From Holosporales bacterium (GTDB lineage Bacteria > Pseudomonadota > Alphaproteobacteria > RUG11792): DNA of 64,000 bases. The DNA lies in the NCBI GenBank assembly GCA_031268935.1, contig JAIRWL010000010.1, forward strand, positions 5,288-69,287. Reading direction: 5' to 3'. The position numbers and the translations under genes were made by a program. Within the stretch, counting starts at the first letter, position 1, and every line of letters starts with the position of its first letter. Of this stretch, positions 4,190 through 63,139 are shown piece after piece. The notes beneath the pieces are model-generated. The model saw only the letters and a program-made list of their open reading frames with translations, had not been told where the DNA came from and ran no database searches.

Positions 4190-4765
4190 ATGGATAAGCT
4201 AAACGGAGAGTTTAAGTATGATACCGAGTCTGGATGGGTTGCCATTCAGTACGTCGAAGGGCTTAAACATGGGGTGACGAGATTCTTTGATAAGTCTTCA
4301 GGATTGGTATTATCAGAAATTACCTACTTCAATGATGTGATAGATGGAGAAGTTAAGCAATACTATCCGAATGGGGCCATTTTATCGATCATTACCTACA
4401 AAACTGGGATTCAGAACGGGCCTTTCATATCGTACTACGAAAACGGGATGAAACAATTGGAATCATATTACGTTAATGGCAAACAAGATGGAGTCGTCAT
4501 TACGTACGATGAATTCGGCGATAAAATCACAGAAAGTCCGTATCATAATGGCGTGAAACACGGGAAAAACATAGTATATTATCCAAAAATCTACGGTGGC
4601 GGAATATTCGAGTTATCGTACTACGAATCTGGCAACCTGAGAGGCGATAAGGTAACCTTCTATGATACCGGAGAAGTTATGACGATAACCCCATACATAT
4701 GCGGAAAGGCTCAGCAATACACCAAAAATTACGCCAAGAACGGTGAGGAACTGCGATCTCCATAG
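4190..4765 (+). CDS. MORN-repeat variant (YwqK-like) protein
   Basis: 191-aa ORF with repeated Y-Y-x-N-G-x-K/L-x-x-E units (YYPNGAILSIITY, YYENGMKQLESYY, VNGKQDGVVITY, HNGVKHGKNIVYY). Confidence 0.6.
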   Translation: MDKLNGEFKYDTESGWVAIQYVEGLKHGVTRFFDKSSGLVLSEITYFNDVIDGEVKQYYPNGAILSIITYKTGIQNGPFISYYENGMKQLESYYVNGKQDGVVITYDEFGDKITESPYHNGVKHGKNIVYYPKIYGGGIFELSYYESGNLRGDKVTFYDTGEVMTITPYICGKAQQYTKNYAKNGEELRSP

Positions 4766-7596: not shown

Positions 7597-10500
7597 TCAA
7601 GCCTTTTTTCCTGCACCTGCCGCTTCTCCCTCCTCTTCTTCCTCATCCTCGCCGTCCGAGGGAACCTGGATTGATTCGATTGTGGCCGTGATCTCTTCCA
7701 GCTTCGGAGCTATAGATTCGGCATATTCCAGAACCTCACCGAACTCAGCGTTTTGACTTGTGTATTCGACTATAGCATTTATTGCTTGCGCTGTTGCGAT
7801 ACCCTCACTAATCCCTTTCCTCAAATACTCATCGATGGGGATGACGAAAGGACCTCCTCTCTTTTGCCAATCTTCTAAGCTCTCCTGAAAAGACTGCGCA
7901 GCATAAGCAGTCAAGAGTGCCTTGTCTTTGGCCCCACTCCCGAGATACTTATACCTCTCACTCGTGAATGGCCAGCTCCCCATCTCCAAAATTGCTGGGT
8001 CTGTCACAGTGTCCTCCTCCGCGGACCTATCCTTCTGCCTAGACTTGCGGATCTCCCGGAACGAACTGCGTGACCACTCGTGCAGGTTAGCGACCATATC
8101 TGTCGTTATAGCTAGTTGCTTCAATGCGACTTCTAAACCAACGTATTCGGTCAACTCCATTCCTCCCAGCTCGCTGTCCGGTTCCTGCTGTGGAAGCCCC
8201 GCCAATATATCCTTCAGACTGAGGACTATCCTGATAGCTCTCTCCGCGACTTGGTCCATTAAGCTCGTCCCAAAACGTTCATGGAAGTCATAGGTTTTCA
8301 TAAAACTCTCCATGGTCTCCAGCCTGTTCTTCTGTATTTCTTCGGCTTTCTTTTCCCGAGAAATTTTCTGTAATCTATTGAGAGCTAGAGCTCTGTCACT
8401 CACCCATTGCATATACCTACTGTCTTCCCCGGACAGTTCTATCCTTAGCTCCTCGGACACGTCCGACCAATTCTCTAAGGCAGTCTGCAATCGGCGTTCG
8501 ACCCATGCAACCGTGTCTCGCTCCGGAGAATCTTCAGCAAGGAGCGACCTAAAATTCTCCTCATCAGCTGTTAAGGCCCCTTCCTTGTCGGCCAGGTATT
8601 CTCTTAACCCCCGGAGCCCTTTCTGTATTTCTATTACGACTCTCAAAGGACCTTCAACTAAAGTGACGTATTCAGACCAAGGTAAGGACGAGGACTCCGT
8701 GCTCCCGGATGGGACTCTTGATAGCAATTCTTCCATATCGGCTGAAATTCTGCCCGCCCGGTCGTAGAGCTCTTCCTCGGGATCCTCCTTACATCTGATA
8801 TCCATGATCTCCTCTGTAAGCTGGGCGATGATCCTTTGCCTTACCAGCTCTAATTCTAACCGAGCAATGCAAAGGGAATCATTTTCGATCTCCATGATGC
8901 GCTTTTGTTTCTCCTCCTGTGATTCTGCCAGTTCAATTTCGATCTGCTTGAGGAGCTTTTGGTTCTCCGCCTGCAATTTTGCCAGTTCATTCATCAGAGC
9001 AGTTTCTGCTTCCGGGGATACTACAAAATCCTCACCGTCCCCTGCTCCTTGAGCCCTTCCTTGGCCTGGTTGATGCATCAAATCATTCATCTTTCGCAGA
9101 GATTGTTCCCAAGATTTCGCTCGTTCCATTACATTACGCAGCCTTTCTCTGAGGTCGGTACTTAACTTTCCCTGCCCTCTACGTCGTTTGTGCTCCGACT
9201 GAATAAACTTCCGGAGATCCTGCTCGAGCTGATCTAACTTTGCTGCCCCCCGCTCAGCTACCCGCACTCTCTTTGTAAAATCCTCCTTAGGAACTCGCCC
9301 CTCTAGCTCCTGCTGCATCTGATCATCCTGGAATGATTCCAAAACCTTCTTGAAGGCCAACAACGGACTTTCGAATCCGACGACTACCCATTGCCAACCC
9401 GACATTCGGTCGTCCCCTAAACTTTCCCCTATCTTCGAATGTACCTGTTCGGCTATCTCTGCCATCGTTTCCAAGCCTCTCTCTTTACGGGCCCACAAGT
9501 CATGTACCCGTAAGAGGTCCTCCCATTCCTGGTCATTTGAGAGGGACGGCCCCTCCGGGAGGTATTCCATTCTCCTTCGTAAATGGGCAAATACTTCTTC
9601 TAACTCCCTCAATCTCAACTTGGCTTCCTCCAACAGGTCCGGGACTTGCTCTGCTCTGACACCTTCCCCGGCTAGTAAGGTTCCCTTGTATGCCTGCTCC
9701 AAAGCTTTTTTAGTTAATTCGATTCGTCTGCCTACCCCTGCTCCGAATCTCCCTCTGAAGGTGCGGTTGCCTCCCTGCCACTTATCCATATTCCGAGCGG
9801 CCCGCTCTTGCGTGTCCAGGCGGGCTAGAAATTCTTGGATCTGAGACAACAATCTTGCCTGTATCCGTGGAAATCTGGAAGGGACTACTCCCGCTGGTTC
9901 GATCCCTTGGCCACCCGAAGCAATCTGCTCCTGCAACACCCGGAATTCTGCCTCCATCCTCCCGCATTCGGCTTGCAAGCTTGCTGCCCGTTCTAATAAA
10001 GCTCTCTTGGTTAGATATGTTCCTCGGAAATTCGGGACCCACCGAGCGAATTTTTCCCGCAATTCCCCATATCCCCACTTTCCTTTCTCGGCTATCTCTT
10101 CGATTAGTCTCCAGACCGGAACAACCCTTGAAAGGGCCGCCCCGACGATGCTCCTCAATCTCGGCGCTTGAGCCTGAAGCGATGCCTTGGTCCGCCCTAG
10201 CTCTGCCCGAAGGGCGATCTGCTCGAGTTCTTTGGTTGCCTCGATGGCCTCGCGCACCTGCTCTTGGAGGCCCTCTGTGAAGTCTTGCCAAGTCGAGAGG
10301 AGCCTATCCCCTTCAGGGGCCCCTCTAAGCCTGACTACAGAACTCTCGGATAGTTGAGGAATCAGCCTGGCTAGGACGGTCAATGGAAGTTCTGCCCTGC
10401 TCACCAATTCTGAAAATCCCCAAGCCTCTAAATCCTCCCGCCCACGCAGTAAACGCCCCGCCTCCTCCAAGCTGCTCACGGCCGCCACTATTTCGTCACC

Positions 10501-50443: not shown

Positions 50444-51247
50444 CTAATAACCAGAACGCATTGGGCGCCCATCTGGCCTCGGGCGGATCATGCCCTGAGG
50501 GGGTCGAAAATCCGGCTGACGGACGCCAGCTTGCCTAAATCCACCAGAGCTGGTTGGAGCTATTGGCCGGTCCTGTGGCTGATGGGGGCCTTGCTTGCCT
50601 TGATCCACTGGGTCTCCGTAACCCCCAGGAGATGTCGACCGACGGGGCCCCCCTCTATGACCTGCGGGACCCGCTCCCTGACCTGCTACCTTCCACTGAG
50701 GACCGGGGAAATATCCTTGCCCTCTACCCTGGCCCTGAGGGGGGACTTGCTTTGCTGGAGGCATAGCTGCTTCGTAACCTCCAGTTGGGGACGAGCTCCG
50801 GAGCCCACCACGATGTCCTCGTTGACCAGCTCCCTGGCCGGCTGCTTGTCCCTGGCGATGTCGGCCAGGTCCTCCTCCTGTCCGATATCCTCCCCTAACG
50901 TGAGGGCTTGTGTGTCTTTGGTGCGGACCACGACAGCCCGCAGCATCCATACCAGCCCCCGTAACCTCTGTGCTCCCCTGCTGCTGTCCTGCAGGAGCCG
51001 GTATGGAGGAGGAAAGAGGCGCTCCAGCTTGCCATCCTTGCCCCATGCCCCCTTGGATCGGCCCGTTTGGGGCACTGTGCTGTCCATCAGGCCCCCGTTT
51101 CATCTGCCCCCCTCTCTGCCCATACCCTGACCCATCTGATGGGGCGCCCCGTGCTGCAGCCGACTCAGGCTGAGGCGCTGCTGCCATCGTCTCAATGCTC
51201 AGCAAACCAGCAATTAAAAGAACTCTGTCAATTAACTTATTCACCAT
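50444..51247 (-). CDS. Secreted Gly/Gln/Pro/Arg-rich repeat protein (267 aa)
   Basis: N-terminus MVNKLIDRVLLIAGLLSIETMAAAP (signal peptide). Repeats AGQGAG.(R/A)GHRGG(L/P)R(S/R)S(S/T)SP(T/G)GGY. Transcribed divergently from tssB. Confidence 0.5.
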   Translation of the reverse strand: MVNKLIDRVLLIAGLLSIETMAAAPQPESAAARGAPSDGSGYGQRGGQMKRGPDGQHSAPNGPIQGGMGQGWQAGAPLSSSIPAPAGQQQGSTEVTGAGMDAAGCRGPHQRHTSPHVRGGYRTGGGPGRHRQGQAAGQGAGQRGHRGGLRSSSPTGGYEAAMPPAKQVPPQGQGRGQGYFPGPQWKVAGQGAGPAGHRGGPRRSTSPGGYGDPVDQGKQGPHQPQDRPIAPTSSGGFRQAGVRQPDFRPPQGMIRPRPDGRPMRSGY

Positions 51248-51491
51248 TCTTCACCCCTTATTATTTCCATGGTCTTCTGCATACTATTCTAACAGACAAA
51301 GATTGTGATTGCAAATGAACCGTGCTTCCTGCCACTTTTGGTGAATTTTTTTATGTGGAATAATCTTTTTATCTGAATCGCCTAAATTTCTCATTGATAA
51401 GTTAACTAATTTTAAAGATATTTTGTCTTAGTATGGCAATAGTGATGTAATCATAGGAAGAGTTTTGTTTTTAGATTTGAGGAATTCGTGA

Positions 51492-52043
51492 ATGGCGGAA
51501 AGCAGGCAGCATACTCTTGGAAGAGTTAGAAAGCCGAGAGTTCACATAACCTATGATGTCGAAATCGGTGATGCGATTGAAAAGAAGGAATTGCCGTTTA
51601 TTGTCGGGGTTTTAGCGGATCTTTCTGGTAATCCAGAACTCCCTCTTCCACCTATGAAGAACAGGAAATTTGTTGAGGTTGATCGTGATAACTTCGGGGA
51701 GATGATGGCTATCATTAATCCTCGATTAGTTATTAGGGTCCCCAACAAACTTTCTGAAGAGGTCCCAGAAATGAGCATTGAGCTGCTTTTTGAATGCATG
51801 GAGGATTTTGAGCCGCAAAATGTAGCGAAAAATATTCCCAGTTTGGCCGCGCTTTATACTCGAAGAAATGCCTTGAAGAACCTCATTACCAAGATGGATG
51901 GTAACGATGCCCTCGAGGCTCTGCTAACTCAGATTATGAAAAATAATGATAATCTGGATAAATTGAAAAAAGAGCTAGATGATCGTGGCGGTGAACCTGC
52001 TCCTGGTAGTACGGAAACGGCCGAGGAAACGACAGCAGAATGA
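51492..52043 (+). CDS. tssB: Type VI secretion sheath small subunit TssB/VipA
   Basis: 183 aa. PRVHITYDVEIGDAIEKKELPFIVGVLADLSG is the canonical TssB N-terminal signature. Confidence 0.9.
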   Translation: MAESRQHTLGRVRKPRVHITYDVEIGDAIEKKELPFIVGVLADLSGNPELPLPPMKNRKFVEVDRDNFGEMMAIINPRLVIRVPNKLSEEVPEMSIELLFECMEDFEPQNVAKNIPSLAALYTRRNALKNLITKMDGNDALEALLTQIMKNNDNLDKLKKELDDRGGEPAPGSTETAEETTAE

Positions 52044-52061: not shown

Positions 52062-53528
52062 ATGGCCGATGAAATAATTGTCATACCGGAAGAAGCGAGC
52101 CTTCTTGATATTCTACTCCATGAAAAGAAAATGGCCAGATTTCCAGAGCAAGAGGATGCCGCTAGCGATTTATTATCCGCTCTTGTTGAAGAATTAAAAG
52201 CGCTAACAGAATCGCCGGCTGAGAGCGGTATCGTTCAATTTCTGATGCGGAGAATACTGGAGATTGACGAACTTCTTACATCTCAGATTAATGAAATTTT
52301 GCATCATCCTGATTTTCAAAAATTAGAAGGTTCTTGGAGAGGATTGCGGTACTTCGTAATGAATACAGAGACGAGTACGAGGATGAAAATCAGGGTAATG
52401 AACGCATCACTATCGGATCTTAGAGATGACCTGTCTAAAGCTATTGAATTCGATCAAAGCGCTCTATTTAAGAAAATTTATGAAGAAGAGTATGGAACTT
52501 TTGGTGGTTCTCCGTATTCATGTTTGATAGGGGATTTTGCGTTTACTAACCATCCACTAGATATTATGTTTTTGGAGCTAATGTCGGGCCTGGCGTCTGC
52601 GGCTCACACCCCATTTATCGCTTCTGTTTCGCCTCTGTTTTTCAACCTCGATAAATTCGAAGACCTGCCGCTTCCGAGAGATCTAGCGAAAGCTTTTGAA
52701 TCTCCGGACTATATTAAATGGAATTCTTTTCGAAATTCGGAAGATTCCAGGTATATAACATTACTTCTTCCGCGAATCCTTATGAGGCTTCCGTATGGCC
52801 CGAGTACTCTTCCCGTAGCAGAATTTAATTTTACTGAAGACGTTGGAATCGGAGATACGGAGAAGTTTTGTTGGGGTAATCCTGTGTATGCCATGGCCCA
52901 GAGGATTACGAATGCATTCGCCCTCTATAGCTGGACGGCGGCTATAAGGGGCGTCGAGGGAGGCGGAGTCGTCGAAGGATTACCGACCTATATCTTCAAA
53001 ACTTTAGAGGGCGATAAGACGGTCAAATGTCCGACCGAAGTAGCGATTACCGATCGGAGGGAAAAAGAGCTAAGTGATCTAGGATTTATTACTGTTTGCT
53101 ATTGCAAGGGCTCTGATTTTGCCGTCTTTTTTGGATGCCAAACGACGCAGAAACCGAAGGTTTATAACTTGGATGATGCTAATGCTAATGCGACAATTTC
53201 AGCTAGAGTGACTTATCTGCTGGCGGCTTCGAGATTTGCTCATTACATCAAGGTCATAATGAGGGATAAAATCGGGGTATTCTTGACGAAAGAAAATGTT
53301 GAACTATATCTTAACACTTGGCTGGCCTCCTATATCCTTTTAAATGATGATGCGCCGGCTAAAGTAAAGGCGGCCTATCCGCTGAGAGAAGGCCGAATAG
53401 ACGTTTACGATGTTCCAGGATCTCCAGGAGCTTATAGGGCGGTCATTTATCTCAGGCCTCATTTCCAGATGGAAGAGTTAACGGCATCGATTAGGCTTGT
53501 TGCAAATCTTCCGGGTAGAGCTGGGTAG
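52062..53528 (+). CDS. tssC: Type VI secretion sheath large subunit TssC/VipB
   Basis: 488 aa. WRGLRYFV, HTPFIASVSP, WGNPVYAMAQRITNAFALYSWTAAIRGVEGGG, EVAITDRREKELSDLGFI, SRFAHYIKVIMRDKIG. Confidence 0.9.
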   Translation: MADEIIVIPEEASLLDILLHEKKMARFPEQEDAASDLLSALVEELKALTESPAESGIVQFLMRRILEIDELLTSQINEILHHPDFQKLEGSWRGLRYFVMNTETSTRMKIRVMNASLSDLRDDLSKAIEFDQSALFKKIYEEEYGTFGGSPYSCLIGDFAFTNHPLDIMFLELMSGLASAAHTPFIASVSPLFFNLDKFEDLPLPRDLAKAFESPDYIKWNSFRNSEDSRYITLLLPRILMRLPYGPSTLPVAEFNFTEDVGIGDTEKFCWGNPVYAMAQRITNAFALYSWTAAIRGVEGGGVVEGLPTYIFKTLEGDKTVKCPTEVAITDRREKELSDLGFITVCYCKGSDFAVFFGCQTTQKPKVYNLDDANANATISARVTYLLAASRFAHYIKVIMRDKIGVFLTKENVELYLNTWLASYILLNDDAPAKVKAAYPLREGRIDVYDVPGSPGAYRAVIYLRPHFQMEELTASIRLVANLPGRAG

Positions 53529-53533
53529 ATGCT

Positions 53534-54715
53534 ATGGGGGGATTGAGATTTAAGTCAGTTATTTTGGCTTCGCTTATTACCTTGTCACCACTCTCTGTTT
53601 CCGTTGCCAAAAAATCAACTCAAACAGACCACAAAAAACTTGATCAGGATCCGATTGATCCTGAAAAACTTAGGGCTCTGACCAAGAAGCATATCGGAGC
53701 CGTTGTTCCCATATATATAACCCGAAATGGCGTGGATAAAGAAGACGGTAGAATTTTTAATCTAGCTGTTGTCCCGAAAAATGAGAGAAAACGACATAAT
53801 AATTTCGTGAAATCTGGAATTATCGTGTCGCCGCAGGGGCATATCCTCACGACGGCCGATGGTATCGAGCGAGGGGATCATATACTCGTTAACATAGGGG
53901 AAGGGGGCGTCGATGTTAGAGAGAAGGGGCAAAATACCTATGAGGCTGTAGTTATCGAAGTCTCGCCAGAATTAGGATTGGCTCTTTTGAAAATCGATCC
54001 CAGAGGAGGTGTAGCATTGCCGTTTATACCGATTGGAAATGCGCCTTCCTTGGTTGCCGGCCAACCGATCTCAGGGGTTGCTATGGGCCATGCCAAGGGT
54101 GATGTTTTCGTAGGGGTAGCATGTCAGGCGAATAAAAACAGTACCTTTGGGCCCTTCGCGATGCCCGCCGAAACGACCCCAATAAAGAAAGATGGTGCAT
54201 GGCAATTGCACATAGTGCAAACGGTAGGCAAGGGAGGATGGTTCGAGCTACATGGCGGGGTCCTAATTGATAGGAACGGGAGGGTGATTGGTCTGATCGT
54301 TGCGGGGGTGGATCAGTTTTACCTACCTGTGTTAACAGCCATCCCCGTGAGTATTGTCGCCAAGGTCCTGCGTACTGCGGTCCCTTCGCTCCTGAAAACT
54401 GCAGACACTGTGCATTTGGGGATAACCCCGTGTTTGAAGCCGGCCAAAACAATTGGAAAAGCCGGGCTAGAGGCCCTCGAATGGGATGTCGTGAATTATC
54501 CATCCTTGGTGGTCATCAAGTCTATTCAAGTTGGTTCTCCGGCCGATAACGCTGGCTTACTCCCTGGAGATGTCATCCTAAGAATAGGAGATGAAGAAGT
54601 TAAGAATCTCGCTACTTTCAAAAATCTAGTGAACGATACAATAGGGACCAATGCAGTCGTTTTCAAGGTCCTGAGAGACGGAAAAATAACAGAATTCGAA
54701 TTGAGTCTGGTATAA
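53534..54715 (+). CDS. HtrA/DegP-like trypsin-fold + PDZ protein, with the catalytic triad apparently substituted
   Basis: Signal peptide (FKSVILASLITLSPLSVSVA), trypsin-fold blocks alignable by eye to DegP, and a PDZ domain (GSPADNAGLLPGDVILRIGDEEV). The triad positions read D (LTTADG where DegP has LTNNHV), G (LGLALLKI where DegP has DIALLKI) and H (ELHGGVL where DegP has GNSGGAL). Confidence 0.65.
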   Translation: MGGLRFKSVILASLITLSPLSVSVAKKSTQTDHKKLDQDPIDPEKLRALTKKHIGAVVPIYITRNGVDKEDGRIFNLAVVPKNERKRHNNFVKSGIIVSPQGHILTTADGIERGDHILVNIGEGGVDVREKGQNTYEAVVIEVSPELGLALLKIDPRGGVALPFIPIGNAPSLVAGQPISGVAMGHAKGDVFVGVACQANKNSTFGPFAMPAETTPIKKDGAWQLHIVQTVGKGGWFELHGGVLIDRNGRVIGLIVAGVDQFYLPVLTAIPVSIVAKVLRTAVPSLLKTADTVHLGITPCLKPAKTIGKAGLEALEWDVVNYPSLVVIKSIQVGSPADNAGLLPGDVILRIGDEEVKNLATFKNLVNDTIGTNAVVFKVLRDGKITEFELSLV

Positions 54716-54895
54716 TTTCTCCTGTCCAAAACCGATTCTCTCAATTCCTGGCAACATCCATGTAATGTCTATTGTCTATAATGAACCGATATCGTAAATC
54801 CCGAATATAATCAAATATATTGACAGTACCTCTCAATCGTCATAAAATAAAAGAAAGGGACGCTTAATCCAAAGGGCATTAGACAGGAGAAGGTC

Positions 54896-55195
54896 ATGAA
54901 AATAAACAACCTAGCGCTAGCGGGAATAATGTTCCAGCTACTGAGTTATAGCAATATGCAGTCACATGCATCAACTCTCGACCCTTATATCCTGCAAAGG
55001 TATATATTGAACCATCCAGAGGAGTTTGGGCAGCTTCGTCCATACGAGGCCTTGGATAAGGCAAGTGACATGCTTCGAAATGCCGAGGTAACGGCAGCCT
55101 TGAGGCAAAAGATCCAGAACGATACCCCCCGCCCCAGGCCAAAAGATGCATTTCCGGAAGATCTTAACGATCCCACCCTTTACGAGTACGATTAG
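54896..55195 (+). CDS. Small secreted hypothetical protein (99 aa)
   Basis: N-terminus MKINNLALAGIMFQLLSYSNMQSHA (signal peptide-like), with an agacaggagaag RBS-like element upstream. Confidence 0.4.
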   Translation: MKINNLALAGIMFQLLSYSNMQSHASTLDPYILQRYILNHPEEFGQLRPYEALDKASDMLRNAEVTAALRQKIQNDTPRPRPKDAFPEDLNDPTLYEYD

Positions 55196-55391
55196 AGTCT
55201 CAGGAGCGCCGGGTCGGGGACAACCATCTCAGCCAGGAAAGATAGCGGTTGGGATTTGAGCGATAAGCCCCCCCCCCCCTTAAGGGATCCTTATCGACCC
55301 GGCAAGGGGGCTGCCCTCGGTGCCCTGATGGGCAGGCGGGATATGATGGGCGGGGAAGCCCGTCTGAGGGTGGAATCCCTCGAGTCCCTAG

Positions 55392-55649
55392 CCAACTGCC
55401 TTAGTTGTAACTCGAACATGGGGTTCCAATCGCCGCACCGTTGACCTTTCACCTTTCCGGTCAGTCTCGGCTGCTTTGTTGAGCTTTGGTAACTACCCAT
55501 TACTTCCTTCCAACTGCAAGAGACCGGATTCCAACTGCCTTAGTTGTAACTCGAGCATGGGGTTCAAATCGCGGCACCGTTGACCTTGCATCTTTCCGGT
55601 CAGTCTCGGCTGCCTCGATGAGCTTTGGGAACTCCCCATTACTACCTTG
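55392..55649 (-). repeat. Two copies of an approximately 119-bp unit (period 139 bp), each carrying a small ORF start
   Basis: ccaactgccttagttgtaactcga.catggggtt.caatcgc.gcaccgttgacctt...tttccggtcagtctcggctgc...gagctttgg.aact.cccattact at 55392 and 55531. On the minus strand, both copies encode MGS(Y/S)QSS(T/S)(K/R)QPRLTGK..GQRC.D.NPM.ELQLRQL. Confidence 0.7.
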
Positions 55650-56473
55650 AACCGCGAATTATTTAATCTCATTCCGGTGTCTCCATGCTGAATGACGTAC
55701 AGTTCGGGCGGACCTCGAGGCGACCTGTGCTCCGTCCTTTTAACGTCCAGAGATATTCTCAAGGGGGATTCTGCCCTCAGTGTCGAATTCCTGCCACGGT
55801 TTCAGCCGAAGCGCTCTTAGGGCGAGAGATCTTCCTAGTTCGGTGAAGACCGGACTGAGCAGCACTTGTCGAGGATCACCTTCAGGTAATCCCTCCGGAA
55901 GTGGCAACCTATGTGCGAACCGAAGAGTGGGAACTGCCCTAAGTTAGAGTCCCCGCCTTGGTACTAGGGGGACGAGATGCATACCTAAAAAGGCCTCACT
56001 GAGCCCCCGTACCTTTTACTGTGAAGCGCCACGAGGGAAACTTAAGACATGCGTGATGATAACTGCTGATACCCTTAATGAGCGTGAGAGCAATGTAATT
56101 CCTCCGCCTCAGTGAGTGACTGCCGCGGGTTACTTCCCTTCGGCTCCTACTTAACTAGAAAAAGGTCTCCCATTCCGACTAAACCCCCTGTCCAAAGCTC
56201 AAAAAAAACTCCCAGGGCCTGGTATCTTATCCAAGTGGGATAAAAAAAGCATTTTCAATTCCGATAGCCCACCCTAGCATCTTGTCTTTCTGTCCCAAGC
56301 TTACTATTTTTTTTCTCAATGCTATCTAGCTTTTTTTCCGTGCCGAAACCTTTCTTCTCCTACCACGAGAGAGGGATCGATTTTCTCTTCGGACTCAGGT
56401 ACCAGGGATCGCCTGGATGTAATCCTATACGTTTTTGAATTGTTTTACCAACCTTACGAGGAGTCGAGCAATC

Positions 56474-56548
<75 letters not shown>

Positions 56549-57764: not shown

Positions 57765-58745
57765 ATGAGTGAGAAGACTGGCCTTATGGAAATGTCAAGC
57801 ATGTTCAGCGAAATATCAAATTGTTTTACAATTCTCGAGAAATACGTGAGTTTCTTCATTCCATTTGCGATCGTTTCTGAAACTCGGGAAGTAATATTCA
57901 AATCATCTCATTTTTGCGAAGTCGAAAAATTTCGTTCTATGAGCGAAAATTTTTCTCTGAAACTACCAATTGCGATGAGAAAAAACCATGAATTTCAATC
58001 ATCAGATGCGATATATCGGAAAGTTGCTACGACGAAAGATGGGATTGGCATTTTTTGTATGACCATTAATTCATCCGAAACGAAAGAAAATAATCGCAAT
58101 TTAGAGCAACCAAAATTTTGTCATGATTCTCAGGAATTACTTCGGAATATTTCTAATTTTCTTCAGATGATTAAAATGCAGTTGGCCCCAGATTGTGATA
58201 AAGAAGTTGTGAATTATATTGATTTTGCATTAAATAATACCGAGATTTTAAGCAAATGGAATAAAAAATTATTAAATGAATCTGAATATTATAGTAATCA
58301 TACCTTTAAGTTGTACGATGCAATCGATCACATCCGGCGTTTGATCTATTTTCTGATTGCCGATAAAGAATGTGTTATTCAGTGTGAACCAGATATTCCT
58401 TCGATACGAGGTAATTATTTTGAAATTCTGAGAGTTTTTAAAAATTTGATCGAGAATTCTATTAAATATGCCAAAACTGATAAATTGATTATCGATATTG
58501 CCATAGTGGAGATTGCGGATGATTTTATTCGTATCATGTTTAGGGATAATGGATCGGCCCTCTCCGAAACTACCAAGAATGAAATAGAATCGATCTTAAG
58601 TGGAGAAAAAAATAGCCTTGGTCTCGAGATATGCAGAGATATTCTCAGCTGCAATAATGGAATGATTAAATTTTTGAGAAACGGTAGTGGCTGCACTTAT
58701 GAGATAAAACTTCACATTGGAACACAAAAAGGAGGCAAGTTATGA
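57765..58745 (+). CDS. Cytoplasmic sensor histidine kinase
   Basis: 326 aa with no TM segment. H-box-like FCHDSQELLRNISNFLQM, N-box FKNLIENSIKYA, G-boxes FRDNGSA and SLGLEICRDI. Confidence 0.75.
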   Translation: MSEKTGLMEMSSMFSEISNCFTILEKYVSFFIPFAIVSETREVIFKSSHFCEVEKFRSMSENFSLKLPIAMRKNHEFQSSDAIYRKVATTKDGIGIFCMTINSSETKENNRNLEQPKFCHDSQELLRNISNFLQMIKMQLAPDCDKEVVNYIDFALNNTEILSKWNKKLLNESEYYSNHTFKLYDAIDHIRRLIYFLIADKECVIQCEPDIPSIRGNYFEILRVFKNLIENSIKYAKTDKLIIDIAIVEIADDFIRIMFRDNGSALSETTKNEIESILSGEKNSLGLEICRDILSCNNGMIKFLRNGSGCTYEIKLHIGTQKGGKL

Positions 58746-59476
58746 AAGGATATGAGACAGGCAATCCGACATCTTCAATCGAAAAAATTATCGGGAGGCA
58801 TTTGCGAGAAAAACGTCTCAAGAGAGGATTTACATTGGCAGAAGTTGCCTCTAAGATAGGAATATCCTATCAGCAGATTCAAAAATATGAGCAAGCGATT
58901 AGCAAGATTTCGGCCGGAGCATTATATCGGTTGTCCTCCCTATATGGAGTAGGTATCGAAAAGTTTTTTGAAGGACTGGGCGGGACGAGCGTGAGTACAA
59001 CCGGGGAATCGATTAATATTTTTGGGCACACCGGAAAGAAAGTTATCAATTTGCTGTTGGTCGAAGACAACCCTGGAGACGAAACGATAACTCGAAAAGC
59101 GCTAAATGCCTTCGGAGATCTCAACATATTATGTGTTCATGACGGTGGTCAGACCATGGAAGTTTTGAGGTACAAAACTCTTTGCCCGGACTTCCCAAGA
59201 CCAGATCTAATTTTTCTTGATATCTATATTCCTCGCAGAGATGGAATAGCCGTTCTTAAAGAAATTAAAAGAGATCGAGAGATTCAAGATATTCCGGTAG
59301 TAATCTTGACGAACAATACGCGTACCGACCTTATGGCTGAGGCTTACAAAAATGGTGCTTCTGGATATATTTGTAAATCGTTCGATTTCATTACTTTCAG
59401 AGAAAATTTAACTGATTGTATAAAATATTGGTCCAGCGCAGTAGTTCTTCCATCGGCCGCACGAAGAATCGAGTAA
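58742..59476 (+). CDS. Fusion of an N-terminal XRE-family HTH and a C-terminal Rcp1-like receiver domain
   Basis: HTH_XRE (IGRHLREKRLKRGFTLAEVASKIGISYQQIQKYEQAISKISAGALYRLS), then a receiver (LLLVEDNPGDE...RPDLIFLDIYIPRRDG...IPVVILTNN...GASGYICKS...YWSSAVVLPS). ATGA overlap with the kinase gene. Confidence 0.8.
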   Translation: MKGYETGNPTSSIEKIIGRHLREKRLKRGFTLAEVASKIGISYQQIQKYEQAISKISAGALYRLSSLYGVGIEKFFEGLGGTSVSTTGESINIFGHTGKKVINLLLVEDNPGDETITRKALNAFGDLNILCVHDGGQTMEVLRYKTLCPDFPRPDLIFLDIYIPRRDGIAVLKEIKRDREIQDIPVVILTNNTRTDLMAEAYKNGASGYICKSFDFITFRENLTDCIKYWSSAVVLPSAARRIE

Positions 59477-59626: not shown

Positions 59627-62600
59627 ATGTTAATAATGGTTTCCAATAAAGAAGGGCGAGCTTACAGCAAAAGGAGACGGGCCCGTCAGGTATTAATCAC
59701 GACATTGTCTTTGGTTATGTTAGCTCCGCTGAGTACCGGGGCCAATGCAGCCGACCACATTCAACCCACATATTCAGCTGAAGTTGAGGAATGGCTAGGG
59801 CGGACCGAACGCTTGCAAGAACACCAATTGAGGCTGCTTATGGATGAGGTTCCTGATCAATTCTCGCAGGTGGCGGATTATTTTGGGCTTATTCGCGCCG
59901 GAATTAACCTCCTACAGGACGAACCCGCGGCAGGGGCTGCTGTAGATCCCCTTCTCCAGCGCCTCATAGAGGATACGCGAGACTGCATCCTGTGCCAACG
60001 TCCACCAAGAGATCAACTATCTGGCGCTCTGACAGAACTCCAAAATCTCAGAGACCAACTCCAATGGGTCAGAGATAAATTAGGGCCCATATGGACCAAT
60101 CCGCCAGTTTCTCCGACGGGACCCTCTGATCTCCCCGGAGCAGGAGCTCCCAATCCGCCACCTCTTGATCCGATGGCGCCCCCTGCTATCCAAGGAGCTC
60201 CGGAACCAGATGCCGCCCCCAGTCCCGGGACCGATGCAGCCGCCCACTTTCAACCCACCTATGCAGCTGAAGTTGTTGCGTGGCTAGGGCGGACCGAACT
60301 CTGGCTAGCACACCAAATGAGTCTGCGTGTGGCTCAGGTTCCTCCACACTTCCCAGAGGTGATTGATTATTTTGTGCTTATCCGCGCCGGAATTACGCTC
60401 CTACAGGACGAACCCGCGGCAGGGGCTGCTATAGATCCCCGTCTCCAGCGCCTCTTAGAGGCTACTCGAAACTTCCTCCTGTTCCAATCTGCCCCAAGGG
60501 ATCAACTATCTTTCGCTCTGACAGAACTCCAAAATCTCAGAGACCAACTCCAAGGGGTCAGAGGTAACTTAGGGCCCCTATTGCCCAATCCTCCAGTCCC
60601 TCCAGTTGCTCCGACGGGACCCGCTGATCTCCCCGGAGCAGGAGCCCCCAATCCGCCGCCTCTTGATCCGACGGCGCCCCCTGCTATCCAGGGAGCTCCG
60701 GAACCAGCTGCCGCCCCCATTCCCGTAATGACAAGTGAACAGTGGGGAGGCGCTGTCCAATCGTGGAAAGCGCAGGTGAAAGGATTGATAGACCGCCAAT
60801 CAGCTCAGGACCGGAGTGGTAGACACTGGACAAGGGACCAACTCCCTTACTACTTAGACTTGCTCCTTCTTGGTAGGCAGGTGTTGGAGCAGAGGCCCCC
60901 TAATGAGGGACCAGAGCTAATGGTCACCCTGTTGTGGGAAGTCCACGATGTGACAGTGGAATTCCTCGAATATATGGTTGCGACACCACCTGAGAGAGTC
61001 TCAGCCTGGGAAGCTTTCCGTGTGGCCACAGCTAATTTTCCTCCTGATTGCCGCCCTACTGCCAATAGGGGGACTGTAGCTCCGGCAAACCCGTCCCCGG
61101 CTCCTCCCCCATCGGGGCAAACCGCACAATTGCGAGGAAGTATTCGCAAATGGCTCGATGAGTATACCTCAAAATCTAGTGGAGACGGGACTGAGATGAC
61201 TCGTAACGCTCTATTAGGCTTTCTCTCTACTGGCTTGAGGCTTTTGGAGAACGTTGCTTATGATTGCGCGGGGTATTTCGATCTCCTTCTTGATTGGGTA
61301 TCCACACTACAATCTCAAATTGAGTTGTTGGACTGTTTTATGCTTAGTGAGTGCCCGTCCTCACCAGATACTGGCCATCCTACATTCTTTTCAGCCCCAA
61401 TAAAGGCGTTTCTATTGCAGCGTGGGTTGGACCCGGCCACGCTATCCACTGCCGGGTATCAAGTCGTGTCCGATGGAGCAAAGGCGCTTCTGTTGCTTTT
61501 GACGGTCCGCTGCGTTAACTGGATTTACTACCTCCTCCCAAGTAATCCCACGGCGCTGTTGACGGACGGGCTAGGATTGATTAAACAAAATGATTTACCC
61601 CCCTCTGTCCTCATTCCTGTAGCGCTGCGGTTGCATGATTTCGTAGATAATTTTGAATTCCCTTCATGTATGAGTCACTTGCCGCCTGAGTTTGCGACGC
61701 TTCCGAATGACTTAGCTCAAGCCCGGGAGTCCCGGCGACTCCTGCTAAACCATTTGCAAACCCCGTTATCTCCCACAGACTACCAGGCTTCGTTAGCTAA
61801 GATGACAACTCCTTTGGATGCCCAGCCGGGACCTCATGTAAGTGACCTAAGTACTGCTGTCTCTGAGTCCGATACCGCCGCGAGATCCTTCAGCGAAACC
61901 TATGGAGATGTAGCTGGAGCCCCACCGCCCGACCTGAACATGGGTGCTCCCCCCAGCCACCCTGTCGATTCCGATCCAGAAGCCGATAGAGGCCCAGGAG
62001 AACCCTCTGGAGATCCAGCCGTAGGCGCCCCACGTCCCGATGCGGAAATGATTGACCCAGACAACCCAGATGGGGAGGATGATGAGCATGAAGCCCCCAG
62101 TGTCGGATTCGACGGAGAGGCGATAGTCGACCCCGTTGTCCCCACAAGCCCTTTGGAGACCCAAATGAGGCCTCTCCTCGTTCCGTTGTATGAGGGGCTG
62201 GACCTTTTGGAGCAACTTGTGTCCAGTAATACGGCTGATTTAGACCTGATTGCCGACGTATCTACCAATATCTATGAAGGACTTCACCCGATCCGTCAGT
62301 CACTTCATGCTATTAGAGCAACCGATCCAGAATCTTTCGCCCGGCTCGACGACGAATTGACCGCCCTCCATGACAAGCGGCAGAGGGTAATGTGCCTATT
62401 CGCAGCTAATTTTTTTCCGACTGCCTTTGCCCTGGCCAATCGGAGTAAACAACGTATAGAGATTATGCTTAGCCTACCGAGAATAAACCCCTTTTCTTTC
62501 GATCCCCAGGTGCGGATGTTGTGCATCGCCTTACGGGTAGCGGAAATGGATGTATCCTATTCCAGACTTCCGCCAGAGTTGAGGAACTTGAGAGACGCTT

Positions 62601-63139
62601 TATATGATATATTGCAACAGTTTCCAACTATCCTGTCTGATATCAAAAGGCGGCTTCCCCCCGATCATTACGCCAACCTACACCGAAGTCTTGTGGCTGT
62701 GCCCTTCCCCCTCCACGGCGACACCGTCGAGGAAGAAGAAACAGAAGAACTCCCGGGAACAGGCCTACAAGGGTGGATCACATCATCACAATCGCCGCCT
62801 GCCTCCTTCTTACCGGGATCTCGAGGTGAATCATTCCCAGCCCCTGGAGCGGGAGGCGAACCGAGAGGCCCATTGGCGATAATGCCACTTGCTTTATTAA
62901 ACAACCATGCGCTGTTCAGAGATGTGAGACTTGAAGACCGGGTTTTCAAAGTAGAAACGACTGTCATACGTCGTCGAGATGATGTTAGGTTGTTGGGGCT
63001 ACCTCCCCTCTCAGACCAAAGTCTAGAACGAGGAATACGTAGAATGTTCGACACCGATACCCGGGAATTATCGCACCTGATAGTAGGCACTCAGTTGGTC
63101 GAAGTCCGCCGTATTCCTCAGGCGCCCACCCGACGATAA
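59627..63139 (+). CDS. Large secreted repeat protein (1170 aa)
   Basis: N-terminus M(LIM)VSNKEGRAYSKRRRARQVLITTLSLVMLAPLSTGANA (basic n-region plus hydrophobic core). Two 163-aa tandem modules, Pro-rich linkers and an acidic segment. No recognisable domain. Confidence 0.75.
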   Translation: MLIMVSNKEGRAYSKRRRARQVLITTLSLVMLAPLSTGANAADHIQPTYSAEVEEWLGRTERLQEHQLRLLMDEVPDQFSQVADYFGLIRAGINLLQDEPAAGAAVDPLLQRLIEDTRDCILCQRPPRDQLSGALTELQNLRDQLQWVRDKLGPIWTNPPVSPTGPSDLPGAGAPNPPPLDPMAPPAIQGAPEPDAAPSPGTDAAAHFQPTYAAEVVAWLGRTELWLAHQMSLRVAQVPPHFPEVIDYFVLIRAGITLLQDEPAAGAAIDPRLQRLLEATRNFLLFQSAPRDQLSFALTELQNLRDQLQGVRGNLGPLLPNPPVPPVAPTGPADLPGAGAPNPPPLDPTAPPAIQGAPEPAAAPIPVMTSEQWGGAVQSWKAQVKGLIDRQSAQDRSGRHWTRDQLPYYLDLLLLGRQVLEQRPPNEGPELMVTLLWEVHDVTVEFLEYMVATPPERVSAWEAFRVATANFPPDCRPTANRGTVAPANPSPAPPPSGQTAQLRGSIRKWLDEYTSKSSGDGTEMTRNALLGFLSTGLRLLENVAYDCAGYFDLLLDWVSTLQSQIELLDCFMLSECPSSPDTGHPTFFSAPIKAFLLQRGLDPATLSTAGYQVVSDGAKALLLLLTVRCVNWIYYLLPSNPTALLTDGLGLIKQNDLPPSVLIPVALRLHDFVDNFEFPSCMSHLPPEFATLPNDLAQARESRRLLLNHLQTPLSPTDYQASLAKMTTPLDAQPGPHVSDLSTAVSESDTAARSFSETYGDVAGAPPPDLNMGAPPSHPVDSDPEADRGPGEPSGDPAVGAPRPDAEMIDPDNPDGEDDEHEAPSVGFDGEAIVDPVVPTSPLETQMRPLLVPLYEGLDLLEQLVSSNTADLDLIADVSTNIYEGLHPIRQSLHAIRATDPESFARLDDELTALHDKRQRVMCLFAANFFPTAFALANRSKQRIEIMLSLPRINPFSFDPQVRMLCIALRVAEMDVSYSRLPPELRNLRDALYDILQQFPTILSDIKRRLPPDHYANLHRSLVAVPFPLHGDTVEEEETEELPGTGLQGWITSSQSPPASFLPGSRGESFPAPGAGGEPRGPLAIMPLALLNNHALFRDVRLEDRVFKVETTVIRRRDDVRLLGLPPLSDQSLERGIRRMFDTDTRELSHLIVGTQLVEVRRIPQAPTRR
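59750..60728 (+). repeat. 2 x 489-bp in-frame tandem duplication
   Basis: gccgaccacattcaacccacatattcagctgaagttg at 59750 against gccgcccactttcaacccacctatgcagctgaagttg at 60239. The protein modules H(I/F)QPTY(S/A)AEV..WLGRTE...LIRAGI.LLQDEPAAGAA.DP.LQRL...LTELQNLRDQLQ...GAGAPNPPPLDP.APPAIQGAPEP.AAP are repeated. Confidence 0.85.

What the first reader, a model, noticed from the sequence alone, without database searches (positions are those of the whole stretch)
53534..54715. An HtrA/DegP-like PDZ protein downstream of tssC appears to have lost all three catalytic residues
The protein aligns by eye with DegP-family proteases across the trypsin fold and one PDZ domain and has a signal peptide. 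The positions of the catalytic His, Asp and Ser read LTTADG (DegP has LTNNHV), LGLALLKI (DegP has DIALLKI) and ELHGGVL (DegP has GNSGGAL). This would make it a periplasmic pseudoprotease, perhaps a chaperone or PDZ-based adaptor. It is encoded 6 nt after tssC and is probably co-transcribed with the sheath genes. I do not know this combination from described T6SS clusters.
Basis: partly seen in the sequence, partly recalled or inferred. Interest (0 to 1): 0.7.

Follow-up and report, generated by a model that had tools for sequence, protein, structure and literature searches.

The report
Dead HtrA-like protein in T6SS sheath operon
A gene fused onto the type VI secretion sheath operon of gut-protist-associated Holosporales bacteria encodes an exported DegP/HtrA-like protein that has lost its whole catalytic machinery yet is kept under selection, so it is probably a new non-enzymatic helper of this secretion system.

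Summary
ORF 53534-54715 (+) encodes 393 aa: a signal-like N-terminus, an HtrA-type trypsin fold and one PDZ domain. Four independent alignments place Asp109, Gly148 and His240 at the catalytic His, Asp and Ser positions. The oxyanion-hole glycine is Glu238.

It is not a one-off decayed gene. An exhaustive HMMER search found about 28 cluster representatives (24-40% identity). None of 35 non-redundant members has a complete triad. The nucleophile and His sites vary more than the domain median, while the surrounding PENxGG loop is conserved and its Glu is invariant. dN/dS is 0.14-0.18.

In all 17 distinct loci examined the gene directly follows tssB-tssC, with a gap of -4 to 25 nt in the 14 loci measured and unrelated flanks. 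It occurs only in one Holosporales TssC subclade (rumen, hindgut and termite-gut MAGs). Sister lineages carry an hcp-like gene at that position.

Best reading: a periplasmic, non-catalytic HtrA-derived binding or scaffold protein co-expressed with the sheath, that is, a lineage-specific T6SS accessory. Its partner and exact role are inferred, not shown. Databases call it "S1C serine protease", and I found no paper describing it. It is a new variant of known kinds (HtrA pseudoprotease; T6SS-associated gene).

The parts
51394..51422 (+). sigma-70-like promoter candidate upstream of tssB (TTGATA-17-GATATT)
   Evidence: Consensus scan only, 9 of 12 matches. Inferred, not evidence of function.
51492..52043 (+). 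tssB (VipA), small sheath subunit, 183 aa
   Evidence: Pfam T6SS_VipA 1.2e-53. Conserved upstream of tssC in 13 of 14 compared loci; the fourteenth contig is cut.
52062..53528 (+). tssC (VipB), large sheath subunit, 488 aa
   Evidence: Pfam VipB 9.9e-126 and VipB_2 1.5e-40. 74-90% identical to the TssC of loci that carry the pseudo-HtrA.
53529..53533 (+). 5-nt tssC/pseudo-HtrA spacer (ATGCT)
   Evidence: The equivalent gap is -4 to 25 nt in 14 loci, consistent with one transcript and coupled translation.
53534..54715 (+). triad-less HtrA-like PDZ protein (pseudo-HtrA), 393 aa plus stop
53534..53608 (+). signal-peptide-like N-terminus (aa 1-25, ...SVA|KK)
   Evidence: Hydrophobicity heuristic and the same feature in relatives. 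pLDDT is below 50 for aa 1-35. No dedicated predictor was run.
53660..54388 (+). degenerate trypsin/HtrA protease-like domain (aa 43-285)
   Evidence: Pfam Trypsin_2; hhalign against canonical HtrA E 1.6e-39; AlphaFold2 model and Foldseek hits to DegP/DegQ/MucD.
53858..53860 (+). codon GAT = Asp109 at the catalytic His position
   Evidence: Family at this site: D16, S4, N4, E2, T2 and others; entropy 2.62 bits.
53975..53977 (+). codon GGA = Gly148 at the catalytic Asp position
   Evidence: Family at this site: N25, G8, D1, K1.
54245..54247 (+). codon GAG = Glu238 replacing the oxyanion-hole Gly (chymotrypsin position 193)
   Evidence: Invariant in 35 of 35 family members, against Gly in canonical GNSGG.
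54251..54253 (+). codon CAT = His240 at the nucleophile Ser position
   Evidence: Family at this site: A11, H8, D4, S3, N3, E2, T, Q, Y, G; entropy 2.80 bits against a domain median of 2.09.
54419..54709 (+). PDZ domain (aa 296-392), including the conserved LGI carboxylate-binding loop and GD motif (D346 invariant)
   Evidence: Pfam PDZ_2 2.3e-12 and PDZ_6 1e-8. G296, S335, D346, N364 and R381 are conserved in the family.

Best explanation
The gene encodes a Sec-exported, catalytically dead descendant of a DegP/DegQ-type HtrA protease: one trypsin-like domain plus one PDZ domain. It has been recruited as a lineage-specific accessory of the Holosporales type VI secretion system.

Shown here:
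- It has the HtrA fold.
- It lacks His, Asp, Ser and the oxyanion-hole Gly.
- It belongs to a monophyletic family in which those sites drift freely while the rest of the protein is under purifying selection.
- The family is always encoded immediately after tssB-tssC.

Inferred:
- It is made from the sheath transcript and exported to the periplasm.
- There it acts by binding rather than cleaving. The PDZ domain would capture a C-terminal tail, and the remodelled former active-site loops (conserved PENxGG and GKAxGE) would hold a polypeptide or a neighbouring subunit.
- In this way it would chaperone, scaffold or anchor the envelope-spanning part of a T6SS that the literature describes as non-standard.

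The binding partner is unknown.
For: Fold and domains.

Loss of catalytic machinery. None of 35 non-redundant members has H+D+S. The nucleophile site shows 10 residue types and the His site 11. Glu at position 193 is invariant.

A functional gene rather than decay: the ORFs are intact at 24-40% identity. dN/dS is 0.18 (L003/L006) and 0.14 (L011/L019), against 0.055 and 0.011 for tssC in the same pairs. Family-specific motifs are conserved.

Linkage to the T6SS:
- The order tssB-tssC-pseudoHtrA holds in 17 of 17 distinct loci.
- These three genes are the only ones conserved across 14 compared loci.
- The gaps are -4 to 25 nt.
- The gene is present in 9 of 9 genome-collection loci whose TssC is at least 74% identical to the window's, and in 0 of 71 loci at 66% or below.

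Export: hydrophobic signal-like N-termini across the family.

Context: the Holosporineae T6SS is conserved but reported as non-standard, without recognisable TssJ and Hcp (PMC11909080), and its genes are scattered in small conserved blocks (PMC8163844).

Precedents for non-catalytic protease folds in envelope machines: MamO (PMC4794232) and mycosins stabilising ESX membrane complexes (PMC5082899).
Against: - There is no transcript, protein, localisation or interaction data.
- No T6SS membrane-complex gene (tssJ/L/M) lies in the window or could be fetched for this clade, so no partner could be tested.
- The family is confined to one subclade, whereas the reported lack of TssJ is general in Holosporineae. 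It therefore cannot be the general TssJ substitute.
- Placement in the sheath operon, at the slot hcp occupies in sister lineages, suggests high expression. That fits an abundant chaperone or secreted protein better than a low-copy membrane-complex subunit.
- Signal peptides were judged by a heuristic only.
- dS in the dN/dS pairs is near saturation (0.98-1.32), so the ratios are approximate.
Confidence: 0.6

Rival explanations
1. It is a non-catalytic regulator or subunit of an active HtrA protease. Like MamO activating MamE, it would co-assemble with or allosterically switch on a genuine periplasmic HtrA. The tssBC linkage would then couple envelope proteolysis to T6SS expression.
For: MamO is an HtrA-like pseudoprotease with a non-Gly residue at position 193 that activates MamE-dependent proteolysis without catalysing anything itself (PMC4794232). 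This family shares the degenerate triad and the non-Gly 193. HtrA proteins oligomerise through the protease domain (established knowledge of the family).
Against: No active HtrA gene lies in the window or in any fetched flank. The only other PDZ protease seen nearby is an S41 CtpA-type protein in L019. The NCBIfam MamO model scores 32 bits against a cut-off of 800. Nothing ties an HtrA substrate to the T6SS.
Confidence: 0.13
2. It is a generic periplasmic holdase or chaperone whose gene merely hitch-hikes on a strong, constitutively used operon. It would have no specific T6SS function.
For: DegP keeps chaperone activity when its Ser is mutated (established knowledge). Reduced endosymbiont genomes often fuse unrelated genes into operons. 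Placement after the highly expressed sheath genes would ensure abundance.
Against: The three genes stay together in 17 of 17 loci while every flank differs. The family is found nowhere apart from tssC, and its distribution coincides exactly with one TssC subclade. A generic chaperone would be expected to occur more widely or to move.
Confidence: 0.12
3. It is an exported protein aimed at the host cell or the cell surface (an adhesin or effector). It would use its PDZ and dead protease domains to bind eukaryotic proteins and would be co-regulated with the T6SS.
For: The bacteria are obligate associates of protists. The protein evolves faster than tssC (dN/dS 0.14-0.18 against 0.01-0.06) and varies in length through insertions (380-655 aa), as host-interaction proteins often do. 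It has a Sec signal rather than being cytoplasmic.
Against: T6SS substrates normally lack Sec signals, and no outer-membrane export route is evident. Core motifs and the PDZ groove are well conserved, unlike typical arms-race proteins.
Confidence: 0.08
4. It is still a hydrolase with a non-canonical active site, for example an Asp109/His240 dyad activating water.
For: All 7 full-length members with His at the nucleophile site also have Asp at the catalytic-His site. The two side chains would face each other in a chymotrypsin fold.
Against: The pair occurs in only 2-3 subclades. Most members have Ala, Asp, Asn, Glu or Gly at the nucleophile site. The oxyanion-hole Gly is Glu in every member. 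No alternative conserved His or Ser exists in the domain.
Confidence: 0.04
5. It is a decaying relic of an htrA gene with no function.
For: The catalytic residues are gone.
Against: ORFs are intact across about 35 lineages at 24-40% identity, dN/dS is well below 1, family-specific motifs are conserved, and the gene is retained in reduced genomes.
Confidence: 0.02

Closest known systems
DegP/DegQ/DegS (HtrA, MEROPS S1C) periplasmic serine proteases
   Same: Signal or anchor N-terminus, chymotrypsin-type two-barrel domain followed by a PDZ domain. hhalign E 1.6e-39. Foldseek best hits are DegP 8f0a, MucD 8k2y, DegQ 4ynn/3pv2/3stj. The PDZ carboxylate-binding loop and GD motif are kept.
   Different: His, Asp, Ser and the oxyanion-hole Gly are all replaced. 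The LD-loop motif GNPFG becomes GKAxGE. The L3 region is replaced by a longer beta-hairpin, and there is an insertion after the His strand. There is only one PDZ. It scores 73 bits against the 416-bit cut-off of TIGR02037. The gene is locked to tssBC.
MamO (and the inactive MamE paralogues) of magnetotactic bacteria
   Same: An HtrA-derived pseudoprotease in Alphaproteobacteria, with a degenerate triad and a non-glycine residue at position 193, retained for non-catalytic roles in an envelope-associated machine (PMC4794232). The window protein also has a Trp in the L1 loop (GGWFELHGG), as MamO does.
   Different: It is not orthologous: the MamO model scores 32 bits against a cut-off of 800. There is no TauE transporter domain. 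The MamO di-His metal site was not tested here. The genomic partner is the T6SS sheath rather than a magnetosome island.
Mycosin (MycP) of type VII secretion systems
   Same: Works-like analogy. It is a protease-fold protein on the extracytoplasmic side, encoded within a secretion-system locus, whose presence rather than its catalysis stabilises the membrane complex (PMC5082899).
   Different: MycP has a subtilisin fold, is membrane-anchored and is still catalytically competent. It belongs to a different secretion system. A role for the present protein in complex stability is only inferred.
T6SS-associated (Tag) envelope proteins such as TssJ, TagL and TagX
   Same: Periplasm-facing proteins genetically linked to T6SS core genes.
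   Different: There is no sequence or fold relation. The window protein has no lipobox Cys (TssJ), no peptidoglycan-binding domain (TagL) and no peptidase activity expected (TagX). It sits in the sheath operon rather than next to tssK/L/M.
GspC of type II secretion systems
   Same: A periplasmic PDZ-containing component of a trans-envelope secretion machine. In one subclade a secretin gene lies divergently next to tssB.
   Different: GspC has an HR domain and a transmembrane anchor, not a protease fold. The secretin neighbour is limited to L003-L006/L017 and probably belongs to the incomplete type IV pilus genes reported for Holosporales (PMC9992710).

Membership tests
HtrA / S1C serine protease (DegP, DegQ, DegS) | Chymotrypsin-type protease domain followed by at least one PDZ domain | tested here: met
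   Pfam Trypsin_2 7.8e-12 and PDZ_2 2.3e-12; hhalign E 1.6e-39; AlphaFold2 pLDDT 84.1 with Foldseek hits to DegP/DegQ/MucD at about 1e-18.
HtrA / S1C serine protease (DegP, DegQ, DegS) | His-Asp-Ser catalytic triad | tested here: not met
   D109, G148 and H240 occupy the three positions in four independent alignments. None of 35 family members has the full triad.
HtrA / S1C serine protease (DegP, DegQ, DegS) | GNSGG oxyanion-hole loop with Gly at chymotrypsin position 193 | tested here: not met
   The window protein has ELHGG. Glu is invariant at position 193 in 35 of 35 family members.
HtrA / S1C serine protease (DegP, DegQ, DegS) | Reaches the curated family score (NCBIfam TIGR02037 / DegS / DegQ / DegP models) | tested here: not met
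   Best score is 73.4 bits against a 416.2 cut-off. All other HtrA models are also far below their cut-offs.
HtrA / S1C serine protease (DegP, DegQ, DegS) | Trimer-based oligomer | not testable with these tools
   Only monomer prediction was available, and no coordinates were returned.
HtrA / S1C serine protease (DegP, DegQ, DegS) | Export to the periplasm (signal peptide or N-terminal anchor) | tested here: inconclusive
   A hydrophobic, positively charged N-terminus is seen in the window protein and in nearly all full-length relatives. No dedicated signal-peptide predictor was available.
T6SS core component (TssA-TssM) | Homology to one of the 13 core families | tested here: not met
   The only Pfam and NCBIfam matches are trypsin/PDZ. 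The neighbours are TssB and TssC.
T6SS-associated gene (Tag) | Conserved genetic linkage to T6SS core genes across genomes | tested here: met
   The gene lies directly downstream of tssB-tssC in 17 of 17 distinct loci with unrelated flanks. It is restricted to one TssC subclade.
T6SS-associated gene (Tag) | Contribution to T6SS assembly or activity | not testable with these tools
   This needs genetics, biochemistry or imaging.
MamO-type magnetosome pseudoprotease | Degenerate triad and a non-Gly residue at position 193 | tested here: met
   compared with the description in PMC4794232.
MamO-type magnetosome pseudoprotease | Orthology to MamO (curated model) and a C-terminal TauE transporter domain | tested here: not met
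   NF040961 MamO scores 32.3 bits against a cut-off of 800. The C-terminus is a PDZ domain, with no TauE match.
TssJ outer-membrane lipoprotein | Lipobox Cys at the signal-peptide cleavage site | tested here: not met
   The window N-terminus has no Cys. Only a few relatives have lipobox-like LLGC or VISC.

The most novel reading that the evidence does not exclude
The pseudo-HtrA is a genuine structural or assembly subunit of a variant T6SS. It would form a periplasmic, probably trimeric, PDZ-bearing cap or adaptor that docks the TssL/TssM complex to the outer envelope in a lineage lacking a recognisable TssJ. It took over the operon slot that hcp occupies in sister lineages. This would be the first protease-derived component of a T6SS and a parallel to MycP in the T7SS.
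Probability: 0.25. Interest if true: 0.75.

Novelty: new variant of a known kind. Interest (0 to 1): 0.6.

Why it matters
The T6SS is the one secretion apparatus conserved in almost all Holosporales symbionts. It is thought to drive their host interactions, yet it is described as non-standard and has had no experimental study (PMC11909080).

A conserved, selected, exported protein welded to the sheath operon is a concrete candidate for a missing or lineage-specific envelope component. It gives a defined protein to test by structure prediction of complexes, biochemistry and cryo-ET.

It also adds an independent case of an HtrA protease repurposed as a pseudoenzyme, after MamO.

Finally, it flags a systematic mis-annotation. 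Public records call these proteins "S1C family serine protease" or "serine protease Do", although none can use the serine-protease mechanism.

Tried and rejected
1. Alternative triad. The HtrA2 pairwise alignment puts His116 at the catalytic His. I rejected this because the register breaks the GSG and DGxIxT motifs, position 116 is Arg in the family consensus, and Asp and Ser remain unmatched.

2. Orphan gene. The word-indexed search found only the identical protein and then canonical DegQ at 25% identity. The exhaustive HMMER search overturned this by finding the family. A second indexed search with the family profile was swamped by canonical HtrAs and recovered only P0089, P0210 and P0001.

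3. Secretin as a conserved partner. A secretin gene is divergent from tssB in L003-L006 and L017 only. It is absent elsewhere, including the window, where the upstream ORF is an unrelated G/Q/P/R-rich protein.

4. Other T6SS genes in the window. Pfam on about 48 ORFs and phmmer against the ORFs of 90 T6SS-containing loci found only tssB and tssC.

5. hcp downstream of the gene. There is no ORF longer than 100 aa in 54716-56473, and an HMM built from the hcp-like genes of sister lineages found nothing in the window or in the clade's loci.

6. Searching the genome collection with the family alignment failed because no conserved 7-10 column stretch exists. The TssC alignment was used instead.

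7. Attempts to reach the rest of the source contig failed: exact look-ups of two window proteins, of P0001, and a 60-mer scan of the metagenome collection.

8. Rfam on the downstream non-coding stretch found nothing besides tRNA-Val.
Full report
**What is at the coordinates**

ORF 53534-54715 on the + strand (ATG to TAA) encodes 393 aa. It starts 5 nt after the TAG stop of a 488-aa TssC (Pfam VipB 9.9e-126, VipB_2 1.5e-40). TssC itself starts 18 nt after a 183-aa TssB (T6SS_VipA 1.2e-53).

The protein matches Pfam Trypsin_2 (aa 94-254, 7.8e-12) and PDZ_2 (aa 325-392, 2.3e-12), both above their curated cut-offs. By sequence it matches solved HtrA/DegP/DegQ/HtrA2 structures at E down to 1.2e-11.

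An AlphaFold2 model built on the family alignment has mean pLDDT 84.1 and pTM 0.70. Only aa 1-35 are disordered. Its best Foldseek matches in the PDB are all HtrA-family chains: DegP 8f0a at 4.9e-19, MucD 8k2y, and DegQ 4ynn/3pv2/3stj.

The N-terminus (MGGLRFKSVILASLITLSPLSVSVA|KK) has the charge, hydrophobic-core and small-residue pattern of a Sec signal. This was judged by a heuristic only.

**The catalytic residues**

Four independent alignments agree:
- phmmer to H. pylori HtrA;
- MAFFT with 36 canonical DegQ/DegS-type proteins;
- MAFFT with the family plus canonical outgroups;
- a profile-profile hhalign between the family and canonical HtrAs (probability 100%, E 1.6e-39).

All place Asp109 opposite the catalytic His (TNNH to TTAD), Gly148 opposite the catalytic Asp (TDLALLKI to LGLALLKI), and His240 opposite the nucleophile Ser (GNSGG to ELHGG). 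The glycine at chymotrypsin position 193, whose backbone NH forms half of the oxyanion hole, is Glu238.

One pairwise alignment, to human HtrA2, slips register and puts His116 at the catalytic His. That register breaks the flanking conserved motifs. Position 116 is Arg in the family consensus, and Asp and Ser are unmatched even there. No His or Ser in the protease domain is conserved in the family.

**It is a family, not a lone wreck**

The word-indexed search found only the identical protein (NCBI MDR1475921.1, "S1C family serine protease", Holosporales MAG, 98,775-bp contig) and then ordinary DegQ proteins at about 25% identity. The exhaustive HMMER scan of 1.84 billion cluster representatives found about 28 full-length relatives of 340-490 aa at 24-40% identity, with E from 1e-67 to 1e-16.

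I combined these with copies recovered from genome and metagenome loci to give 35 non-redundant members. Their residues at the catalytic positions are:

| Position | Residues seen in the family |
|---|---|
| Catalytic His | D16, S4, N4, E2, T2, and one each of H, A, K, R, I, P |
| Catalytic Asp | N25, G8, D1, K1 |
| Nucleophile Ser | A11, H8, D4, S3, N3, E2, T, Q, Y, G |

No member has His, Asp and Ser together. The three that keep Ser lack His. The one that keeps His lacks Asp and Ser.

Entropy at the His and Ser sites (2.62 and 2.80 bits) exceeds the median of the domain (2.09 bits). These two sites therefore evolve without constraint.

The surrounding loop, by contrast, is conserved as P-E-N/T-x-G-G, with Glu in 35 of 35 and the second Gly in 35 of 35. 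Family-specific motifs replace canonical ones: GKAxGE for the LD-loop GNPFG, plus IYN, SIxSE and NxxNxF.

In a neighbour-joining tree the family is monophyletic relative to canonical H/D/S outgroups. The simplest reading is a single ancient loss of activity followed by drift at the vacated sites.

Two moderately close pairs give dN/dS of 0.18 and 0.14, against 0.055 and 0.011 for tssC in the same pairs. dS is near saturation, so the values are rough. Together with the intact ORFs across such divergence, they exclude a decaying pseudogene.

**Genomic linkage**

Exact-protein look-ups placed P0061, P0210, P0089, P0062, P0069, P0085, P0081 and P0087 directly after tssB-tssC. For P0074 the upstream contig-end ORF is the TssC C-terminus.

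A scan of one genome per GTDB species with a TssC alignment returned 80 loci. An HMM of the family hit an ORF immediately downstream of tssC in L011-L019 and nowhere else. In those nine loci TssC is 74-84% identical to the window's. They are Holosporales or "Alphaproteobacteria" MAGs from cattle and goat rumen, roe-deer rectum and termite guts.

The phyletic split is complete. The gene is present in 9 of 9 loci of that TssC subclade and in 0 of 71 others.

Across 14 compared loci, the only gene families shared by more than three loci are tssB, tssC, the pseudo-HtrA, and spurious antisense ORFs inside tssB and tssC. The flanks include LolE, a secretin, RbfA, PGK, GlyQ and others, and they differ from locus to locus.

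The distance from the tssC stop to the first start codon is -4 to 12 nt, or -4 to 25 nt to the first ATG. Counting distinct loci, the order holds in 17 of 17.

Sister alphaproteobacterial and Holosporales lineages (L020-L024, L047; TssC 59-66% identical) carry a divergent hcp-like gene of about 190 aa at that position. It is homologous to the hcp that follows tssC in many other phyla, and in L021 it is followed by tssE. This matches the [tssB-tssC-hcp] block reported for Bodocaedibacteraceae, Paracaedibacteraceae and Caedimonadaceae (PMC8163844).

In the pseudo-HtrA clade no hcp-like gene is seen within the fetched flanks or in this 64-kb window.

**Surroundings in the window**

Apart from tssB and tssC, the window holds no recognisable T6SS gene. 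The neighbours are housekeeping genes: Pal/OmpA, FtsB, LolE-type permease, KdsA, S1, L13/S9, NusB, TsaD, FtsA, FtsZ and LeuRS. There are also large, GC-rich ORFs without any family match. This agrees with the scattered T6SS gene organisation described for Holosporales.

A weak promoter-like site lies upstream of tssB. No terminator-like site lies between tssC and the gene.

**How it most likely works**

Shown:
- an HtrA fold with one PDZ;
- no catalytic machinery;
- purifying selection;
- obligatory operonic linkage to the sheath genes;
- restriction to one symbiont clade.

Inferred:
- The protein is made together with TssB and TssC and exported by Sec.
- In the periplasm it acts as a binding module.
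- The PDZ domain keeps the carboxylate-binding LGI loop and the conserved GD and R positions, so it should still bind C-terminal peptides.
- The former active-site loops are conserved in a new form (invariant Glu193, near-invariant Lys in GKAxGE). This suggests a fixed, non-catalytic cleft or an inter-subunit contact rather than a vestige.

The most economical function is a chaperone or scaffold for the envelope-spanning part of the T6SS. A recent review calls this apparatus conserved but non-standard, with no recognisable TssJ or Hcp (PMC11909080).

Two caveats limit the stronger version, in which it replaces TssJ. First, the family occurs in only one subclade, while the reported TssJ gap is general. 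Second, the operon slot after the sheath genes implies abundance, which fits a chaperone better than a 10-15-copy membrane-complex subunit.

Rivals:
- a MamO-like activator or partner of an active HtrA;
- a generic holdase that hitch-hikes on the operon;
- an exported host-binding protein;
- a non-canonical hydrolase using Asp109 and His240. That pair co-occurs in all 7 full-length members with His at the nucleophile site, but only in 2-3 subclades;
- a dead relic, which is excluded.

**Comparison with what is known**

By fold and ancestry it is an HtrA (S1C) protein. It fails three defining features of the protease family: the triad, the oxyanion-hole glycine, and every curated NCBIfam cut-off (best 73 bits against 416). 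It should not be filed as a serine protease.

The closest functional precedent is MamO, an alphaproteobacterial HtrA-derived pseudoprotease with a degenerate triad and a non-Gly 193 that acts non-catalytically (PMC4794232). The two are not orthologous (32 bits against 800), and this protein has a different architecture.

As a working analogy, mycosins are protease-fold proteins whose presence, not their activity, stabilises type VII secretion membrane complexes (PMC5082899).

It is not homologous to any T6SS core protein, nor to the known Tag envelope proteins as far as Pfam and NCBIfam show.

Full-text searches found no description of such a T6SS component. The terms used were T6SS with pseudoprotease; T6SS with PDZ, periplasmic and accessory; and T6SS with tssC, trypsin-like and PDZ. 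The Holosporales genomics papers read do not mention it. The library lacks most subscription-journal papers, so the absence of a report is not proof.

**Verdict**

The gene represents a conserved, selected family of triad-less HtrA-like PDZ proteins that forms a fixed three-gene module with tssB and tssC in a clade of gut-protist-associated Holosporales. It is a new variant of known kinds (HtrA pseudoprotease; T6SS-associated gene). The mechanism is inferred and the partner is unknown. Interest is moderate to high (0.6).

Noticed in passing
window 55392-55648 (within 54716-56473): A 139-nt unit is repeated 1.8 times (about 91% identity). It sits inside a 1.7-kb stretch with no ORF above 100 aa and no Rfam match, between the pseudo-HtrA gene and tRNA-Val(gac) at 56474-56548 (-).
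   Followed up: partly
window 50444-51247 (-): A 267-aa ORF lies divergent from tssB. It has a signal-like N-terminus followed by G/Q/P/R-rich low-complexity sequence, with GC about 60% against about 42% for its neighbours. It has no Pfam or NCBIfam match and no homologue in any fetched locus.
   Followed up: partly
window 7597-19928 (-), 24153-28259 (-), 59627-63139 (+): These are runs of large ORFs (1046, 565, 518, 410, 1368 and 1170 aa) with GC of 50-60% in a genome of about 42% GC. None has a Pfam match; the two largest (1368 and 1170 aa) also have no NCBIfam match. They could be effectors or foreign DNA.
   Followed up: partly
window 4190-4765 (+); L047 10217-10921: A MORN_2 / YwqK-like protein. 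Its homologue in L047 sits right after a VgrG-sized ORF, recalling the [ywqK-vgrG] block reported for Holosporales (PMC8163844). No vgrG is adjacent in the window.
   Followed up: partly
window 57765-59476 (+): A two-gene pair: a protein with only an HATPase_c match, and a regulator with an unusual N-terminal Xre-type HTH plus a C-terminal receiver domain.
   Followed up: no
L003 6191-7747, L006 105-1631, L017 3664-5238 (all -): In one subclade of the family (the long 481-488 aa versions), a 508-518 aa secretin gene is divergently adjacent to tssB. It is not conserved in other loci.
   Followed up: yes
L020-L024, L047 (ORF directly after tssC): Sister Holosporales-like lineages carry a very divergent hcp-like gene of about 190 aa. 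It goes unrecognised by Pfam except for one sub-threshold hit (L020, E 0.0018). This may explain why Hcp is reported as missing from Holosporineae T6SSs (PMC11909080).
   Followed up: partly
public records of the family (MDR1475921.1, MDR2598269.1, MDR0640340.1, MDR1333544.1; JGI): Members are annotated as 'S1C family serine protease', 'serine protease Do', 'PDZ domain-containing protein' or 'hypothetical protein'. The protease names are very likely wrong functionally.
   Followed up: yes
family alignment: All 7 full-length members with His at the nucleophile site also have Asp at the catalytic-His site (uncorrected Fisher p about 0.002). The window protein has His186 where 97% of the family has Lys (GKAxGE).
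   Followed up: partly
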